From the NCBI RefSeq assembly GCF_003231495.1, contig NZ_PQWO01000002.1, positions 360,001-392,000 of the forward strand: a stretch of DNA of 32,000 bases. The letters run 5' to 3'. Below, piece after piece: positions 14,890 to 32,000 of the stretch. Numbering within the stretch: the first letter of the stretch is position 1; each line of letters starts with the position of its first letter. The translations under genes were made by a program, and so were the position numbers. The notes under the pieces are model-generated. The model did no database searches, was not told where the DNA came from, and saw only the letters and a program-made list of their open reading frames with translations. Origin of the DNA: Acaryochloris thomasi RCC1774 (GTDB lineage: Bacteria > Cyanobacteriota > Cyanobacteriia > Thermosynechococcales > Thermosynechococcaceae).

Positions 14890-15468
14890 ATGACAGCGTA
14901 CACCGTTAACTTTGATACCATCTGCAAGCTGACGGATGACCAGTTTTTCCAGCTGTGTCAGGCAAACCCTGAGCTTAAGTTTGAACGCAACAGCAAAAGA
15001 GACTTAATCATCATGCCCCCGACTGGCGGAGAAGCAGGTCACCGCAATTTTGAATTAGCTACTGAAGTTGCGATTTGGAACCGCAAAGCCAATTTAGGTA
15101 TCGGCTTCGACTCTTCAACCTGCTTCAAATTACCCAACGGTGCAAATCGATCTCCAGATGTTGCCTGGATCCGTCTAGAACGGTGGAACGCTCTGACAAC
15201 TGAGCAACGAACTAAGTTCCCGCCCATTGCGCCCGATTTTGTTCTAGAGCTGATGTCTGCAACCGACTCTTTGCCAGCACTACAGTCGAAAATGCGGGAG
15301 TATAGAGACTGTCAGGTGCAGCTAGGCTGGTTAATTGTTCCTCGGAGCCGCCAAGTTGAAATTTATCGGCAGGGGGAAGCTGTTGAAGTTTTACCATCTC
15401 CTCGCACCCTGGCAGGGGAAGGTATTTTACCTGGATTTGTTCTAGATCTGAGTTTGCTCTGGTCTTAG
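14890..15468 (+). CDS. Uma2-family (DUF820) PD-(D/E)xK-type putative endonuclease
   Basis: PPTGGEAGHRN, FDSST.FKLPNGA.RSPDVAWI and PDFVLELMS are the characteristic Uma2 blocks. By-eye alignment puts it at about half identity with the second copy at 30276-30851. Confidence 0.85.
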   Translation: MTAYTVNFDTICKLTDDQFFQLCQANPELKFERNSKRDLIIMPPTGGEAGHRNFELATEVAIWNRKANLGIGFDSSTCFKLPNGANRSPDVAWIRLERWNALTTEQRTKFPPIAPDFVLELMSATDSLPALQSKMREYRDCQVQLGWLIVPRSRQVEIYRQGEAVEVLPSPRTLAGEGILPGFVLDLSLLWS

Positions 15469-17721: not shown

Positions 17722-19002
17722 ATGAATATTGCTCTTTTTGGTACTAGCGCAGATCCACCGACGATCGGTCATCAGGTGGTTCTAGAATGGTTGGTGCAAC
17801 GCTTTGACCTTGTGGCTGTTTGGGCATCAGATAATCCATTTAAAGGGAATCAAACGCCCCTTGAACATCGTCAGCAAATGCTGCGGCGCTTGGTAGACCA
17901 GGTGCAAGTACCTCAGATTCAGCACGATCCCAATCTGAGCGATCCGAGGACGCTGAATACGGTGAATACGGCCCGTCTACGCTGGCCTGCGGCTCAGTTT
18001 ACGCTAGTAGTGGGCTCTGACGTGCTACCAACTCTTTTGCACTGGCATCGCGTTGCAGAACTTTTGAGGCTCGTAAAGATTTTGGTAGTGCCGCGCTCCG
18101 GTGCGCCGCTGATGGAGGCGACGCTGCAGGCGTTGCGATCGCAACAGGCAGAAGTTGCGATTGCAGACTTTCTCGGCCCCGATATTTCTTCGAGCGCTTA
18201 CCGCAACACCGGCAATTCGGCTGGACTGCCCGAGACCATCTCAACCTATATTCAAGAGCATGATTTATACCCCAAACCTACAGACTCCCTTGAACTCCCG
18301 TCGGATCTGCCCCTAGCGGGTTTCAATGTGGGCGTCGATAACGTCATCTTTTCCGTTGATACCAACCATAATCAGCTTCTGGTGCTGTTGGCGGTGCGTC
18401 AGACGCCGCCCTACGTGGGGCAGTGGGCCTTGCCGGGAACACTTGTCCGGCAAGGCGAGGCCCTAGAAAATGCTGCCTATCGCATTTTATCTGAGAAGAT
18501 TCGGGTTCAGAACCTTTACCTAGAGCAGCTCTATACCTTTGGCGGCCCTAACCGAGATCCGCGAGAATCAGCAGAAAGCTCCCGCTACCTGTCCGTGAGC
18601 TACTTTGCCGTCGTGCGCTATGAAGAAGCTATTTTGATGAGCGATGAGCGACATCTGATCTCGTGGCACCCCATTGGACAGATTCCCCCGCTGGCCTTCG
18701 ATCACGCACAAATTTTGGCCTACGGTCATAACCGACTCCGCAACAAGCTAGAGTACAGCCCTGTGGCCTTCGACGTTTTGCCCGACTTGTTTACCCTCAG
18801 CGATCTCTATCAGCTCTACCGCACGGTACTGGGCGACCAATTTTCAGACTATTCTAACTTCCGCGCTCGGATTCTAAAGCTGGGTTTTTTGGCGGCGACC
18901 GGCCAAAAAGTGGGTCGAGGTGCCGGTCGCCCTGCCTCGCTTTATCGATTTGATGCGGAGGCCTTTGCGCCCCTCAAGGATAAGCCGATGGTGTTTATTT
19001 AG
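17722..19002 (+). CDS. nadD: fusion protein: NadD-type nicotinate/nicotinamide-nucleotide adenylyltransferase + degenerate Nudix domain + NrtR-like winged-helix C-terminus
   Basis: The N-terminal part has GTSADPPTIGH (a (H/T)xGH nucleotidyltransferase motif) and DISSSAYR (an ISST-type motif). The middle part has a Nudix fold whose box reads PGTLVRQGEALENAAYRILSEKIRV, so the REUxEE glutamates are partly lost. The C-terminus (YSNFRARILKLGFL..TG....GAGRPA.LYRF) is typical of the NrtR winged-helix domain. Confidence 0.8.
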   Translation: MNIALFGTSADPPTIGHQVVLEWLVQRFDLVAVWASDNPFKGNQTPLEHRQQMLRRLVDQVQVPQIQHDPNLSDPRTLNTVNTARLRWPAAQFTLVVGSDVLPTLLHWHRVAELLRLVKILVVPRSGAPLMEATLQALRSQQAEVAIADFLGPDISSSAYRNTGNSAGLPETISTYIQEHDLYPKPTDSLELPSDLPLAGFNVGVDNVIFSVDTNHNQLLVLLAVRQTPPYVGQWALPGTLVRQGEALENAAYRILSEKIRVQNLYLEQLYTFGGPNRDPRESAESSRYLSVSYFAVVRYEEAILMSDERHLISWHPIGQIPPLAFDHAQILAYGHNRLRNKLEYSPVAFDVLPDLFTLSDLYQLYRTVLGDQFSDYSNFRARILKLGFLAATGQKVGRGAGRPASLYRFDAEAFAPLKDKPMVFI

Positions 19003-30275: not shown

Positions 30276-30851
30276 TTAAAAGATTCGCTGTAGCTTTAGA
30301 ACAAAGCCGTGCAGGATATTCTCTCCGTCAAGCTGATGTGGCGAAGACAGCACTTCTTTCTGTTGCCCCTGTCTAAAAATCTCTACTTGTCGATCTTGAG
30401 GGTTGAGGAGCCAGCCGAGGCGGGTGCCGTTATCGATATATTCCTGCATTTTGTCTTGCAGGGGGCGGAGTGTGTCGCTAGGTGATCTCAGTTCAATAAC
30501 AAAGTCTGGGCATAGGGGCGGGAAGGTTCTGCGTTCTTCAAGTGTCAGGACATTCCACTTTGCCAGTGGAATCCAGGCGGCATCAGGTGAACGAAAGGCT
30601 CCATTGGGCAAACGAAACATAGTGCTGGAATCGAAGGACTCCCCGGTGCCGTCTTGGTCAGTCCAGTTGCCGAGCTGCTGAGTTAGTCTGCGATTGCGAT
30701 GTCCGCTTTCTCCGCCTGTGGGTGGCATAACAACTAATTCACCACTGGCAGTGCGTTCAAGTTTGGCGTCTGGATTGGCATGACAAAGCTTGAGGAATTG
30801 TTGGTCAGTCAGTTGGACAAGTGGTTCTAGGGTCAGTGTGACTGTGTTCAT
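30276..30851 (-). CDS. Uma2-family (DUF820) PD-(D/E)xK-type putative endonuclease
   Basis: PPTGGESGHRN, FDSSTMFRLPNGAFRSPDAAWI and PDFVIELRSPSD are present. It is a paralogue of the gene at 14890-15468. Confidence 0.85.
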   Translation of the reverse strand: MNTVTLTLEPLVQLTDQQFLKLCHANPDAKLERTASGELVVMPPTGGESGHRNRRLTQQLGNWTDQDGTGESFDSSTMFRLPNGAFRSPDAAWIPLAKWNVLTLEERRTFPPLCPDFVIELRSPSDTLRPLQDKMQEYIDNGTRLGWLLNPQDRQVEIFRQGQQKEVLSSPHQLDGENILHGFVLKLQRIF

Positions 30852-31007
30852 TATGCTGCACCTCTAATGTCGAAATTGGGGCATTAGAACATTTTCTCTA
30901 GTCTAGTCGCTATGGTCTCTGATATTTGTTGCCTGGACTTTGATGAGATCGCAACCCTGCACAATACTGTTTATTCTCATCACAAATTTTGCTGGCAAAA
31001 CAAGATG

Positions 31008-31244
31008 CTAAAGATAGCGCCGCTGAAATTGTGGGTCGATGCGATCGCATTTCTTACGGTTGCAGCGCTGACAAAGCGTATGCAGATTGCTGATATCGTT
31101 GGGGCCACCCTTCGCCAACGGAATGATGTGATCCACTTCTAAGGGAACGTGTGATTGGCTGCAGCTCTGACATTGGTGACCATCTCTAGCCAGGACATAA
31201 CTTCTGACACCTACAGGGATAGGAATGCGAGGTGTTTTATCCAT
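31008..31244 (-). CDS. minimal stand-alone HNH endonuclease (78 aa)
   Basis: The sequence V..RDGHQCQSC.....LEVDHIIPLAKGGPNDISNLHTLCQRCNRKK contains both CxxC pairs and the H-N-H catalytic residues. Its ATG is 2 nt downstream of the preceding gene's stop. Confidence 0.88.
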   Translation of the reverse strand: MDKTPRIPIPVGVRSYVLARDGHQCQSCSQSHVPLEVDHIIPLAKGGPNDISNLHTLCQRCNRKKCDRIDPQFQRRYL

Positions 31245-31246
31245 GT

Positions 31247-31594
31247 CTACCCGTGACCATTTACTTGAGTCGTTTCTTGCCTCAGTGCATCTAAAGGAGA
31301 TTCTGTGCTTGATGCTTGTTCCGCAGCTGGTTCGTCAGTTGCCTCTTCTGGTGAATCTGGACAAAACTCGATGACAACCCGAAATTTGCCAGTTTGCCAA
31401 CCTTCACCATTTGGTCTTAATACATGACAGCTAAATCCTTCGCTGAATACTAGCTTCTCTTGATTACTTCTGGCCCATCCATCTTTCAAGTCAATCAATA
31501 GTTCCTTCGCTTTAAAGGTGTAAGGTAGACTCTTTGTTTCTCCGATGGGCGAAATTACATCACAGCTAGAAAGAATGACAGAATTTTTTTGCAT
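31247..31594 (-). CDS. KGK-domain protein (cyanobacterial domain of unknown function), acidic C-terminal tail
   Basis: FSEGFSCHVLRPNGEGWQTGKFRVVIEFCPDSPEE aligns with the upstream paralogue and with the eponymous G-W-x-K/T-G-K core of the KGK domain. An acidic tail and an LDALR motif follow. A GAGG RBS lies 9 nt upstream of the ATG. Confidence 0.75.
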   Translation of the reverse strand: MQKNSVILSSCDVISPIGETKSLPYTFKAKELLIDLKDGWARSNQEKLVFSEGFSCHVLRPNGEGWQTGKFRVVIEFCPDSPEEATDEPAAEQASSTESPLDALRQETTQVNGHG

Positions 31595-31613
31595 GGTATA
31601 CCTCGAAGGAAAA

Positions 31614-31988
31614 TTACTGGTTCTGATAGCTGCTAGGTTCTCTAAGAGCGTCTAGTCCTGATTCATTCATTTCTGGCTCGTCTGGATAAAACTCAAGCGT
31701 AACTTTGAATCTCACCTTGCCTTTCTGCCAGCCCTGAGAACTCGGTTCAAGAATTTCGCAGTCTAAACCATCGGTAAACCATGCTTCACGATAATTTTCT
31801 GGTTTGTCAATCGGGAACTTGCCACGGCCCTCATCCCAGATCATTTTGCCTAGTTGATTCAATCCGTGGTCTTGGAAAGCCGTTAACGCATATTGCATTA
31901 GCTCTTTTTGCTTGAACATATTAGAGCTAATCGAAACGGCTGTACCCTCGTCATTAAAGGGTTTAAATTTTGGATTGGAGTAGTTCAT
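31614..31988 (-). CDS. KGK-domain protein (cyanobacterial domain of unknown function)
   Basis: FTDGLDCEILEPSSQGWQKGKVRFKVTLEFYPDEPE...GLDALRE contains the literal KGK motif. It is the first gene of the minus-strand KGK-KGK-HNH run. Its promoter region lies beyond the window end. Confidence 0.78.
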   Translation of the reverse strand: MNYSNPKFKPFNDEGTAVSISSNMFKQKELMQYALTAFQDHGLNQLGKMIWDEGRGKFPIDKPENYREAWFTDGLDCEILEPSSQGWQKGKVRFKVTLEFYPDEPEMNESGLDALREPSSYQNQ

Positions 31989-32000
31989 CGTTAATATTTT

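What the first reader, a model, noticed from the sequence alone, without database searches (positions are those of the whole stretch)
30276..31988. Two tandem KGK-domain genes coupled to a minimal HNH nuclease, followed by a Uma2 nuclease: candidate uncharacterised nuclease/partner module
Seen in sequence: three minus-strand ORFs run head to tail (31988->31614, 31594->31247, 31244->31008). The first gap is 19 nt and contains a GAGG RBS. The second gap is only 2 nt between the stop and the next ATG, which argues for co-translation. The first two proteins are paralogues. Both carry ...(D/S)C(E/H)(I/V)L.P...GWQ(K/T)GK.R....EF.PD.PE... and then an acidic tail ending in LDALR(E/Q). The third protein is a complete 78-aa HNH nuclease with no other domain. 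A Uma2 (PD-(D/E)xK-like) gene follows 156 nt downstream on the same strand. Established knowledge: the KGK domain is a cyanobacteria-restricted domain with no assigned function. Stand-alone HNH nucleases with small, tightly coupled partner genes are a recurring layout in toxin-immunity, toxin-antitoxin and anti-phage systems. Inference: the KGK proteins may be cognate inhibitors, regulators or specificity partners of the HNH nuclease, and their acidic tails could mimic nucleic acid. I know of no description of this pairing. The locus is cut by the window end, so further upstream genes may belong to it.
Basis: partly seen in the sequence, partly recalled or inferred. Interest (0 to 1): 0.7.

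Follow-up and report, generated by a model that had tools for sequence, protein, structure and literature searches.

The report
Dynamin-linked KGK–HNH nuclease gene cluster
The two KGK genes and the tiny HNH nuclease are real and belong together, but they are the tail end of a cyanobacteria-wide gene cluster headed by a dynamin-like GTPase (SynDLP type), which links a presumed membrane-remodelling protein to a DNA-cutting enzyme; the neighbouring Uma2 gene is a bystander.

Summary
On the minus strand lie KGK (31988-31614), KGK (31594-31247), a 78-aa HNH (31244-31008) and Uma2 (30851-30276), with spacers of 19, 2 and 156 nt. All four pass Pfam thresholds. The window comes from Acaryochloris thomasi RCC1774.

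KGK-HNH adjacency is strongly conserved: 63 of 79 KGK-seeded genome loci from about 20 cyanobacterial genera show it, with 85 of 101 KGK/HNH junctions overlapping or at most 60 nt apart. In almost every case the pair sits directly downstream of an ~810-aa dynamin-like GTPase orthologous to SynDLP/Slr0869 (PDB 7ZW6). In a DLP-seeded metagenome survey, 41 of 59 informative loci carry the HNH. KGK copy number runs from 0 to 5.

The window ends 12 nt upstream of KGK1, so the GTPase gene cannot be seen here.

Uma2 is not part of the unit. It makes up 4 of 108 flanking ORFs, its copies next to different clusters are not orthologous, and a paralogue lies 15 kb away in the same window.

A simple toxin-antitoxin model is weakened, because the HNH occurs without KGK and KGK occurs without the HNH.

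The DLP-KGK link is published. The HNH link appears only in a supplementary table. Function remains inferred.

The parts
31614..31988 (-). KGK1, a 124-aa acidic (pI 4.8) KGK-domain protein of the 'DLP-proximal' type
   Evidence: It is the ORF. Pfam KGK matches at E 2e-23 over residues 8-116. It is 100% identical to A. thomasi C1752_00942. It is 70% identical to the first KGK of L001, which follows a SynDLP orthologue. The AF2 model has pLDDT 78 and no PDB or BFVD fold match.
31595..31613 (-). 19-nt spacer carrying a GAGG Shine-Dalgarno-like motif ahead of KGK2
   Evidence: Read directly from the sequence.
31247..31594 (-). KGK2, a 115-aa acidic (pI 4.7) KGK-domain protein of the 'HNH-proximal' type
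   Evidence: Pfam KGK matches at E 4.8e-15 over residues 25-107. Its best cross-locus matches are KGKs that sit last before the HNH, or that are the only KGK in their locus.
31008..31244 (-). Minimal 78-aa basic (pI 9.2) HNH nuclease, starting 2 nt after the KGK2 stop codon
   Evidence: Pfam HNH_5 matches at 7e-17 and HNH at 2e-14. C25, C28, D38, H39, N49, N53, C58, C61 and N62 are at least 98% conserved across 55 unique orthologues, with median identity 59%. By Foldseek the AF2 model matches the McrA HNH domain, the stand-alone Gme HNH nicking endonuclease, the phage GVE2 HNH and Cas9 HNH domains.
30276..30851 (-). Uma2 (PD-(D/E)xK-like) gene next to the cluster, judged a bystander and not part of the unit
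   Evidence: Pfam Uma2 matches at 4.7e-46. It is only 27% identical to the Uma2 next to the orthologous cluster in L001. It is 53% identical to a second Uma2 at window 14890-15468. Uma2 accounts for only 4 of 108 dereplicated flanking ORFs across loci.

Best explanation
The three ORFs are the distal genes of a conserved cyanobacterial gene cluster. Its order is a SynDLP-type dynamin-like GTPase (~810 aa), then 0-5 small acidic KGK proteins, then one minimal basic HNH nuclease, all on one strand. The last KGK is usually translationally coupled to the HNH.

Shown by the data: the gene order and its conservation, the intact HNH active site, the KGK/HNH co-occurrence, the charge complementarity, and the dispensability of Uma2.

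Inferred: the three products act together. The HNH would be the effector that nicks or cuts DNA. The fast-evolving, copy-number-variable KGK proteins would be adaptor or regulator subunits. They would hold the bare HNH domain inactive and/or tether it to the oligomeric, membrane-binding GTPase. Nuclease activity would then be confined to sites and times set by the dynamin-like protein, for example membrane perturbation during phage DNA entry or other envelope or thylakoid stress.

The most likely biological role is a membrane-coupled surveillance or defence activity against invading DNA. A housekeeping DNA-handling role is the main alternative.

In this window the GTPase gene, if present, lies beyond position 32000.
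For: Orthologous loci show the order DLP-KGK-KGK-HNH even though their outer flanks differ.

The KGK-seeded genome scan found 63 of 79 loci with DLP+KGK+HNH on one strand. They span Microcoleus, Tychonema, Planktothrix, Microseira, Nostocales, Stigonema, Pleurocapsales, Chroococcus, Aphanothece, Pseudanabaena, Leptolyngbyaceae and Thermosynechococcaceae.

In the DLP-seeded metagenome scan, the 59 informative loci break down as follows:
- 34 with DLP+KGK+HNH
- 7 with DLP+HNH
- 5 with DLP+KGK
- 13 with DLP alone

KGK and HNH presence are associated in that set (odds ratio 12.6, p 7e-5).

Of 101 KGK-HNH junctions, 36 overlap by 4 or 8 nt and 49 are 0-60 nt apart.

The DLP is a full-length orthologue of Slr0869/SynDLP (PDB 7ZW6, E 3e-274).

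DLP and HNH evolve slowly, at 54-61% and a median of 59% identity across orders. KGKs are only 30-45% identical, and 0-5 copies precede the HNH.

KGK proteins are acidic and HNH proteins basic throughout.

In Synechocystis, slr0868-slr0871, which include SynDLP, are co-induced 6-16-fold in a lexA mutant. This fits one co-regulated unit (PMC4759255).

Bacterial dynamin-like proteins have published links to phage defence: B. subtilis DynA, as cited in PMC10104851, and Eleos LeoA/LeoBC models in PADLOC.

The 12 nt upstream of KGK1 in the window resemble the DLP-KGK spacer of relatives.
Against: - The GTPase gene is not visible in the window.
- No A. thomasi protein appears among the best 120 SynDLP homologues, although its KGK and HNH are in the same database. 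The window's contig could not be retrieved.
- Two loci carry KGK-HNH without a DLP within 8 kb (L020, L072). Thirteen of 59 DLP loci carry neither KGK nor HNH. Linkage is therefore strong but not obligate.
- The median DLP-to-KGK spacer is ~224 nt by my ORF calls, so separate promoters are possible.
- Flanking genes are mostly housekeeping, with only a few defence-like hits.
- No KGK relative was found in viral contigs.
- Slow evolution and wide vertical conservation are atypical of defence systems.
- The KGK fold matches nothing solved, so an adaptor or inhibitor role rests on context and charge only.
- No interaction, activity or phenotype data exist.
Confidence: 0.55

Rival explanations
1. 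The unit is a toxin-antidote or immunity pair. The HNH is a toxic DNase and the acidic KGK proteins are its cognate inhibitors, acting as antitoxin or immunity proteins or as DNA mimics. On this view the module is self-contained and the dynamin-like GTPase is only a neighbour.
For: The KGK2-HNH junction is 2 nt in the window, and junctions overlap or lie within 60 nt in 85 of 101 loci. KGK is acidic and the HNH basic. KGK and HNH co-occur (p 7e-5). KGK-HNH persists without an adjacent DLP in L020 and L072. From established knowledge, the colicin E-type HNH DNases are neutralised by small acidic Im proteins.
Against: - The HNH sits directly after the DLP with no KGK in 7 of 59 loci, and those HNHs keep all family motifs.
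- KGK occurs without the HNH in 5 of 59 DLP loci, in the window's nearest relatives L089 and L169, and in 8 orphan loci.
- The conserved SPLDDxR tail is retained in orphan KGKs (10 of 11), so its partner is not specifically the HNH.
- Copy number of 0-5 KGK per single HNH is odd for a 1:1 antidote.
- The cluster is single-copy, slowly evolving and found across orders, unlike mobile toxin-antitoxin modules.
- There are no PADLOC hits for KGK.
Confidence: 0.15
2. The architecture is the same three-part DLP-KGK-HNH cluster, but the role is housekeeping. It would process the cell's own DNA at membranes, for example in nucleoid or chromosome-copy handling in polyploid cells, DNA uptake or export, or repair. 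This would be analogous to the E. coli dynamin-like CrfC acting at replication forks, and would not be defence.
For: DLP and HNH are highly conserved across cyanobacterial orders. Flanks are mostly housekeeping and variable, with rplI and dnaB in the window. There are no viral homologues. The Synechocystis cluster responds to LexA depletion. JGI pipelines name these DLPs 'CrfC', but this is an automatic label and weak evidence.
Against: The cluster is absent from 13 of 59 SynDLP loci, and the HNH has been lost in close relatives of the window (L089, L169), so it is dispensable. KGK copy number and sequence turn over quickly, as expected for conflict interfaces. Some loci sit next to defence-like genes, such as McrBC in L072 and AriA-, AbiL- or HEC-like hits. 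No beta-clamp motif or DNA-replication link was shown.
Confidence: 0.25
3. This is the first reader's four-gene reading, in which Uma2 is a functional member of a dual-nuclease module with KGK and HNH.
For: Uma2 lies 156 nt downstream on the same strand. A Uma2 gene also follows the HNH in L001. Uma2 genes flank clusters in L024, L097 and L112.
Against: - The window and L001 Uma2 proteins are only 27% identical, while KGK1 is 70% and the HNH 76% identical, so the Uma2 genes are not orthologous.
- Only 4 of 108 flanking ORFs are Uma2.
- Where Uma2 does flank a cluster, its position and strand vary.
- A 53%-identical paralogue lies among housekeeping genes at 14890-15468, which shows a high background density.
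- In most loci a convergent gene directly follows the HNH.
Confidence: 0.04

Closest known systems
'KGK clade' of cyanobacterial dynamin-like proteins / SynDLP (Slr0869) gene cluster (Jilly et al. 2018, PMC5827413; Gewehr et al. 2023, PMC10104851)
   Same: A SynDLP-type DLP is followed by one or more KGK genes. DLPs of related loci are full-length orthologues of the solved SynDLP. The window's KGK1 is orthologous to the KGK that follows such DLPs.
   Different: The papers treat KGK as the only conserved neighbour and discuss membrane or thylakoid remodelling. The HNH nuclease is never discussed and appears only as 'HNH nuclease' in three rows of a supplementary table. Here the HNH is a regular third component, present in 41 of 59 DLP-seeded loci. 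The DLP gene itself is outside the window.
Dynamin-like proteins in phage defence: Eleos (LeoA/LeoBC) and B. subtilis DynA
   Same: Both involve a large dynamin-family GTPase, co-encoded with partner genes in Eleos, and both have published or catalogued anti-phage roles.
   Different: The cluster's DLP matches LeoA/LeoBC models only over the N-terminal GTPase region (E 1e-7 to 1e-11, ~60-260 residues). Those systems have no nuclease and no KGK. No defence phenotype is known for SynDLP.
McrBC-type GTP-dependent restriction (oligomeric GTPase plus nuclease subunit)
   Same: The logic is the same: an oligomerising GTPase is co-encoded with a small nuclease effector. In one locus (L072) an McrB-like AAA_5 gene and an McrC gene occupy the position upstream of KGK-HNH.
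   Different: McrB is an AAA+ GTPase and McrC a PD-(D/E)xK nuclease. Here the proteins are a dynamin-fold GTPase and an HNH nuclease. There is no homology and no evidence for modification dependence.
Stand-alone minimal HNH nucleases (Gme HNH nicking endonuclease PDB 4H9D; phage GVE2 HNH 5H0M) and the McrA, Cas9 and IscB HNH domains
   Same: The fold and the CxxC...DH...N...CxxCN metal and catalytic constellation are shared. These are the best Foldseek matches. The best NCBIfam hit is to the HNH segment of IscB.
   Different: The IscB score is sub-threshold (69 bits against a 175-bit cutoff). There is no RuvC, guide-RNA or DNA-recognition domain. Family-specific KTPRIxIP N-terminal and DxRFRR C-terminal motifs are conserved. 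Genomic coupling to KGK and a DLP is unique to this subfamily.
Colicin E-type HNH DNase / Im immunity protein pairs (established knowledge)
   Same: A small acidic protein is encoded next to a basic HNH DNase.
   Different: KGK has no detectable sequence or fold relation to any solved protein, Im proteins included. Here the acidic gene lies upstream. KGK number varies from 0 to 5. KGK and the HNH each occur without the other.

Membership tests
Pfam KGK (PF08872) | Score above the Pfam gathering threshold (25.6 bits) for both upstream proteins | tested here: met
   The scores are 83.5 and 56.5 bits. The conserved core and tail motifs are shared with 1450 family representatives.
HNH nuclease superfamily (PF01844 / PF14279) | HMM score above threshold, plus the beta-beta-alpha-Me catalytic His/Asn residues and two CxxC zinc ligand pairs | tested here: met
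   HNH_5 scores 61.5 bits and HNH 53.8 bits. C25, C28, D38-H39, N53, C58, C61 and N62 are invariant in 55 orthologues. The structural model matches solved HNH domains. Catalysis itself was not tested.
Uma2 (PF05685) | HMM score above threshold | tested here: met
   The score is 156.8 bits. This shows membership of the family, not of the KGK-HNH unit.
SynDLP 'KGK-clade' DLP gene cluster | A KGK gene or genes on the same strand directly downstream of a SynDLP-type dynamin-like GTPase | not testable with these tools
   The window ends 12 nt upstream of KGK1, and contig retrieval failed. The feature is met in all near relatives examined (L001, L005, L089, L169) and in 68 of 79 KGK-seeded loci. No A. 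thomasi DLP was seen.
SynDLP 'KGK-clade' DLP gene cluster | Window KGKs are orthologous to the cluster's KGKs | tested here: met
   KGK1 is 70% identical to the first KGK of L001 and 65% to that of L089. The best hits of KGK2 are HNH-proximal KGKs.
Eleos (LeoA/LeoBC) dynamin defence system | Full-length matches to LeoA and LeoBC | tested here: not met
   Only partial N-terminal GTPase matches were found for the DLPs of relatives. KGK has no PADLOC hit.
Type II toxin-antitoxin / nuclease-immunity pair | The toxin is never found without its cognate antidote gene, in a two-gene autonomous module | tested here: not met
   Seven of 59 loci have the HNH without KGK, and KGK occurs without the HNH. 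Toxicity and neutralisation were not testable.
IscB / Cas9 RNA-guided nucleases | NCBIfam equivalog score, plus RuvC and bridge-helix domains | tested here: not met
   The score is 69 bits against a 175-bit cutoff, and it covers only the HNH segment 183-238 of the IscB model. The protein is 78 aa.
Septu PtuB / type II-IV restriction HNH proteins (PADLOC) | A full-length model match and the partner ATPase or methylase | tested here: not met
   Only HNH-core partial hits were found (E 1e-8 to 1e-2). No PtuA-like gene is adjacent.

The most novel reading that the evidence does not exclude
SynDLP-KGK-HNH is an ancient, cyanobacteria-wide three-component machine. A dynamin-like GTPase oligomer at the membrane would recruit or release a minimal HNH nuclease through rapidly diversifying KGK adaptor proteins. 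This would be a dynamin-gated nuclease, for example for destroying incoming phage or plasmid DNA at the entry site. On this reading the physiological role of the SynDLP clade would be DNA-directed rather than purely membrane or thylakoid remodelling, and KGK would be a new fold acting as a nuclease-coupling adaptor.
Probability: 0.3. Interest if true: 0.8.

Novelty: new variant of a known kind. Interest (0 to 1): 0.58.

Why it matters
The in vivo function of cyanobacterial dynamin-like proteins is unknown. This includes SynDLP, which has been solved structurally, and current thinking centres on thylakoid and membrane repair. About 70% of SynDLP-type genes are followed by a strictly conserved HNH nuclease, usually via KGK proteins. 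This gives a concrete handle that has not been discussed before: a DNA-cutting effector and a family of candidate adaptors. It also gives the orphan KGK domain (about 1450 representative sequences, no known fold relative) a defined genomic partnership. Finally, it suggests simple experiments (nuclease assays with and without KGK, SynDLP and GTP, and mutant phenotypes) in tractable strains.

Tried and rejected
1. Extending the window. Exact-protein look-ups for KGK1, P0001 and the HNH found no indexed contig. Whether A. thomasi has the DLP upstream therefore stays open. The closest DLP cluster (P0047) contains no A. thomasi member.

2. Uma2 as a component. This was rejected. My own seed-limited Uma2 HMM found only one organism, so I replaced it with a Pfam scan of 108 flanking ORFs.

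3. KGK fold assignment. The AF2 model gave no PDB or BFVD match with E below 0.1, and a profile search against PDB sequences found nothing.

4. KGK in phages. None was found in IMG/VR.

5. KGK fusions to other domains. There were none among the top 150 of 1450 representatives.

6. Recurrent partners of orphan KGKs. None were found.

7. The 162-aa ORF between KGK and the HNH in Planktothrix-type loci as a divergent KGK. This was rejected by hhalign.

8. Promoter and terminator scans between the HNH and Uma2. Nothing exceeded the shuffle expectation on the relevant strand.

9. Homing-endonuclease or mobile-HNH idea. This was rejected on three grounds: the fixed 3' position, 59% median identity across orders, and the absence of any DNA-binding domain.

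10. Multimer prediction was not possible with the tool restrictions.
Full report
**Observation**

The minus strand of the window end carries four ORFs at exactly the stated coordinates:
- 31988-31614, 124 aa
- 31594-31247, 115 aa
- 31244-31008, 78 aa
- 30851-30276, 191 aa

The spacers are 19 nt (containing GAGG), 2 nt (TAG-ac-ATG) and 156 nt. rplI and dnaB follow on the same strand.

Pfam assigns KGK to the first two ORFs (83.5 and 56.5 bits, cutoff 25.6). It assigns HNH_5/HNH to the third, with no other domain, and Uma2 to the fourth. PADLOC and NCBIfam give nothing for KGK and only partial HNH-core hits for the nuclease. The best of these is the HNH segment of IscB at 69 bits against a 175-bit cutoff.

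**Origin**

KGK1 and the HNH are 100% identical to proteins of Acaryochloris thomasi RCC1774. KGK1 is C1752_00942, on a 561-kb contig.

**What lies upstream in relatives**

The nearest retrievable locus is a Thermosynechococcaceae MAG (KGK1 70% identical, HNH 76%). It reads Dynamin_N protein (836 aa), KGK, KGK, HNH, Uma2, and is then followed by RecQ, so its outer flank differs from the window's. Another lineage (L005) reads DLP-KGK-KGK-HNH followed by a convergent GH57 gene and no Uma2.

The 836-aa protein is a full-length orthologue of Slr0869/SynDLP, whose cryo-EM structure is PDB 7ZW6 (E 3e-274).

Published work already defines a 'KGK clade' of cyanobacterial dynamin-like proteins by a KGK gene downstream of the DLP (PMC5827413, PMC10104851). 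Neither paper mentions a nuclease in its text. The supplementary table of the first lists 'HNH nuclease' three times and 'Restriction endonuclease' once as the downstream gene. Searches combining dynamin-like, KGK, PF08872 and HNH found no other description.

**How general is it?**

I ran a scan of species-dereplicated genomes seeded with a KGK alignment. It returned 79 loci, which I annotated with my own ORF calls and HMMs:

| Arrangement | Loci |
|---|---|
| DLP, then 1-5 KGK, then HNH, on one strand | 63 |
| DLP+KGK, cut by a contig end | 4 |
| KGK-HNH with no DLP visible (two of these have at least 7 kb of upstream sequence: L020, L072) | 3 |
| DLP plus five KGK but no HNH | 1 |
| Distant orphan KGK genes, mostly Nostocales | 8 |

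The 63 full clusters come from about 20 genera: Microcoleus, Tychonema, Lyngbya, Planktothrix, Microseira, Anabaena/Nostoc/Cylindrospermum/Tolypothrix, Stigonema, Xenococcus/Waterburya/Hyella, Chroococcus, Aphanothece, Pseudanabaena, Leptolyngbyaceae and Thermosynechococcaceae.

Because that scan is biased towards KGK, I repeated it seeded with the DLP in metagenome contigs. Of 59 loci with enough downstream sequence:
- 34 are DLP+KGK+HNH
- 7 are DLP+HNH with no KGK
- 5 are DLP+KGK only (one of these, L151, has the HNH divergently upstream)
- 13 are DLP alone

KGK and HNH presence are associated given a DLP (odds ratio 12.6, Fisher p 7e-5). Over 101 non-redundant loci, the last KGK and the HNH overlap by 4 or 8 nt in 36 and lie 0-60 nt apart in 49. 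The adjacency seen in the window is therefore a conserved, selected arrangement.

**The parts**

*HNH.* The 55 unique orthologues are a median of 59% identical to the window protein. C25, C28, D38-H39, N49, N53, C58, C61 and N62 are essentially invariant. So are a family-specific N-terminus (KTPRIxIP) and C-terminus (DxRFRR). An AF2 model (pLDDT 73) matches the McrA HNH domain, the stand-alone Gme HNH nicking endonuclease, the phage GVE2 HNH, and the Cas9 and Cap5 HNH domains. It is a credible active minimal nuclease with no DNA-recognition domain of its own.

*KGK.* The family has about 1450 representatives at 50% clustering. The best 150 are all 76-263 aa, stand-alone or tandem, and none is fused to another domain. 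An AF2 model of KGK1 (pLDDT 78) shows a hairpin, a long helix, a short helix, a second hairpin that carries GWQKGK, and a disordered acidic tail ending in the conserved SPLDDxR motif. It has no significant match in the PDB or BFVD, and a sequence profile finds no solved relative.

KGKs are uniformly acidic (median pI 4.7-5.1) and the HNHs basic (median 9.6). There is weak positional orthology. First-position KGKs tend to match first-position KGKs. HNH-proximal KGKs tend to match last-position or sole KGKs. The window's KGK1 and KGK2 follow this pattern.

KGKs evolve much faster (30-45% identity) than the DLP (54-61%) or the HNH. In the window they also have lower GC (0.43 against 0.50).

**Uma2**

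The Uma2 genes next to the window cluster and the L001 cluster are only 27% identical. Only 4 of 108 dereplicated flanking ORFs across loci are Uma2, among 122 different Pfam families. A 53%-identical Uma2 paralogue sits among housekeeping genes at 14890-15468 in the same window. An equally similar one (57%) lies upstream of the DLP in L112. In most loci a convergent gene follows the HNH directly. Uma2 is a high-copy bystander.

**Mechanism**

The data show a co-linear, often translationally coupled unit made of a dynamin-like GTPase, variable KGK proteins and a catalytically intact minimal HNH.

I infer that the unit works as one system in which the HNH is the effector. The KGK proteins would be adaptor or regulator subunits that restrain the bare nuclease and/or dock it on the oligomeric, membrane-binding GTPase.

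Three observations argue against a pure toxin-antitoxin or immunity pair:
- The HNH occurs directly after the DLP with no KGK in 7 loci, and those HNHs keep all family motifs.
- KGK occurs without the HNH, including in the window's nearest relatives L089 and L169 and in orphan loci.
- The conserved tail motif is retained in orphan KGKs (10 of 11) and in HNH-less DLP loci (8 of 11), so the tail's partner is not specifically the HNH.

Whether the biological role is defence or housekeeping is open.
- For defence: other bacterial dynamins are linked to phage resistance, Eleos models are in PADLOC, KGK turns over quickly, and there are occasional defence-like neighbours, including McrBC directly upstream of KGK-HNH in L072.
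- For housekeeping: the DLP and HNH are strongly conserved, the flanks are varied and mostly housekeeping, there are no viral homologues, and slr0868-0871 are co-induced in a Synechocystis lexA mutant.

**Caveat for this locus**

The DLP cannot be seen. The window stops 12 nt before KGK1. Those 12 nt resemble the DLP-KGK spacer of relatives. No A. thomasi DLP appears among the best 120 SynDLP homologues, and the contig could not be fetched. A stand-alone KGK-HNH pair, as in L020, is therefore not excluded here.

**Novelty and verdict**

The DLP-KGK pairing is known. The systematic presence of an HNH nuclease as a third component is, as far as the searchable literature shows, undescribed. The same holds for the KGK copy-number range, the charge complementarity and the exclusion of Uma2.

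I rate this a new variant of a known kind: a bacterial dynamin-like protein operon carrying a nuclease effector. Interest is moderate to high, because it gives the unresolved function of SynDLP-type dynamins and of the KGK domain a directly testable handle.

Noticed in passing
window 14890-15468 (+): A second Uma2 gene (Pfam E 1e-41) is 53% identical to the one at 30276-30851. It sits among housekeeping genes, which shows a high Uma2 density in this genome.
   Followed up: yes
window 31247-31988: Both KGK genes have markedly lower GC (0.43) than the window average (0.50) and the adjacent HNH (0.50). Fast evolution or a different history are possible explanations. The cause is unexplained.
   Followed up: no
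L072 5017-7293 (+), Microcoleus sp. CAN_BIN18: An McrB-like AAA_5 gene and an McrC gene lie directly upstream of KGK-HNH, where the dynamin-like GTPase normally sits. No DLP lies within 8 kb. In L020 (Lyngbya) KGK-HNH also lacks an adjacent DLP.
   Followed up: partly
L049 8253-9440; L012 9246-10466 (similar-sized ORFs in L017 and L028): A DUF2252 gene recurs inside the cluster, between KGK and the HNH, or just after it in Cylindrospermum- and Microseira-type loci.
   Followed up: partly
L077 8694-9182, L080 8627-9115, L084 8301-8801, L085 8325-8813: A conserved 162-166-aa ORF lies between KGK and the HNH in Planktothrix-type loci. It has no Pfam hit and no hhalign similarity to KGK. It may be a lineage-specific extra component.
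   Followed up: partly
L012, L017, L028, L127 (downstream of the HNH): In Microseira-type loci an additional KGK gene follows the HNH, giving the order KGK-KGK-HNH-KGK.
   Followed up: no
L151 1828-2070 (-): Here the cluster-type HNH is encoded divergently upstream of the DLP instead of after the KGK genes. It is still linked but rearranged.
   Followed up: no
L089 and L169 (nearest DLP-bearing relatives of the window; KGK1 ~65% identical): These loci have DLP-KGK-KGK but no HNH, and tblastn finds no remnant. This indicates recent loss of the nuclease in a sister lineage.
   Followed up: partly
Synechocystis PCC 6803 slr0868-slr0871 (literature, PMC4759255): All four genes around SynDLP (slr0869) are induced 6-16-fold in a lexA-disrupted mutant. 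This suggests one LexA-repressed unit. Whether slr0871 is the HNH was not determined.
   Followed up: partly
one search hit list: No A. thomasi protein is among the best 120 SynDLP homologues, although its KGK and HNH are in the same database. The DLP may be absent, a pseudogene or simply not indexed. JGI pipelines label these DLPs 'replication fork clamp-binding protein CrfC'.
   Followed up: partly
window 17722-19002 (+): This is an NrtR/NadR-like regulator-enzyme fusion (cytidylyltransferase-like + NUDIX + AraR_C/NrtR winged helix). The other ORFs scanned in the window are ordinary housekeeping genes, including an NDH chain-6 (Oxidored_q3) gene, a Mur ligase, an amino-acid permease/SLC12-family transporter and a TPR protein.
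   Followed up: no
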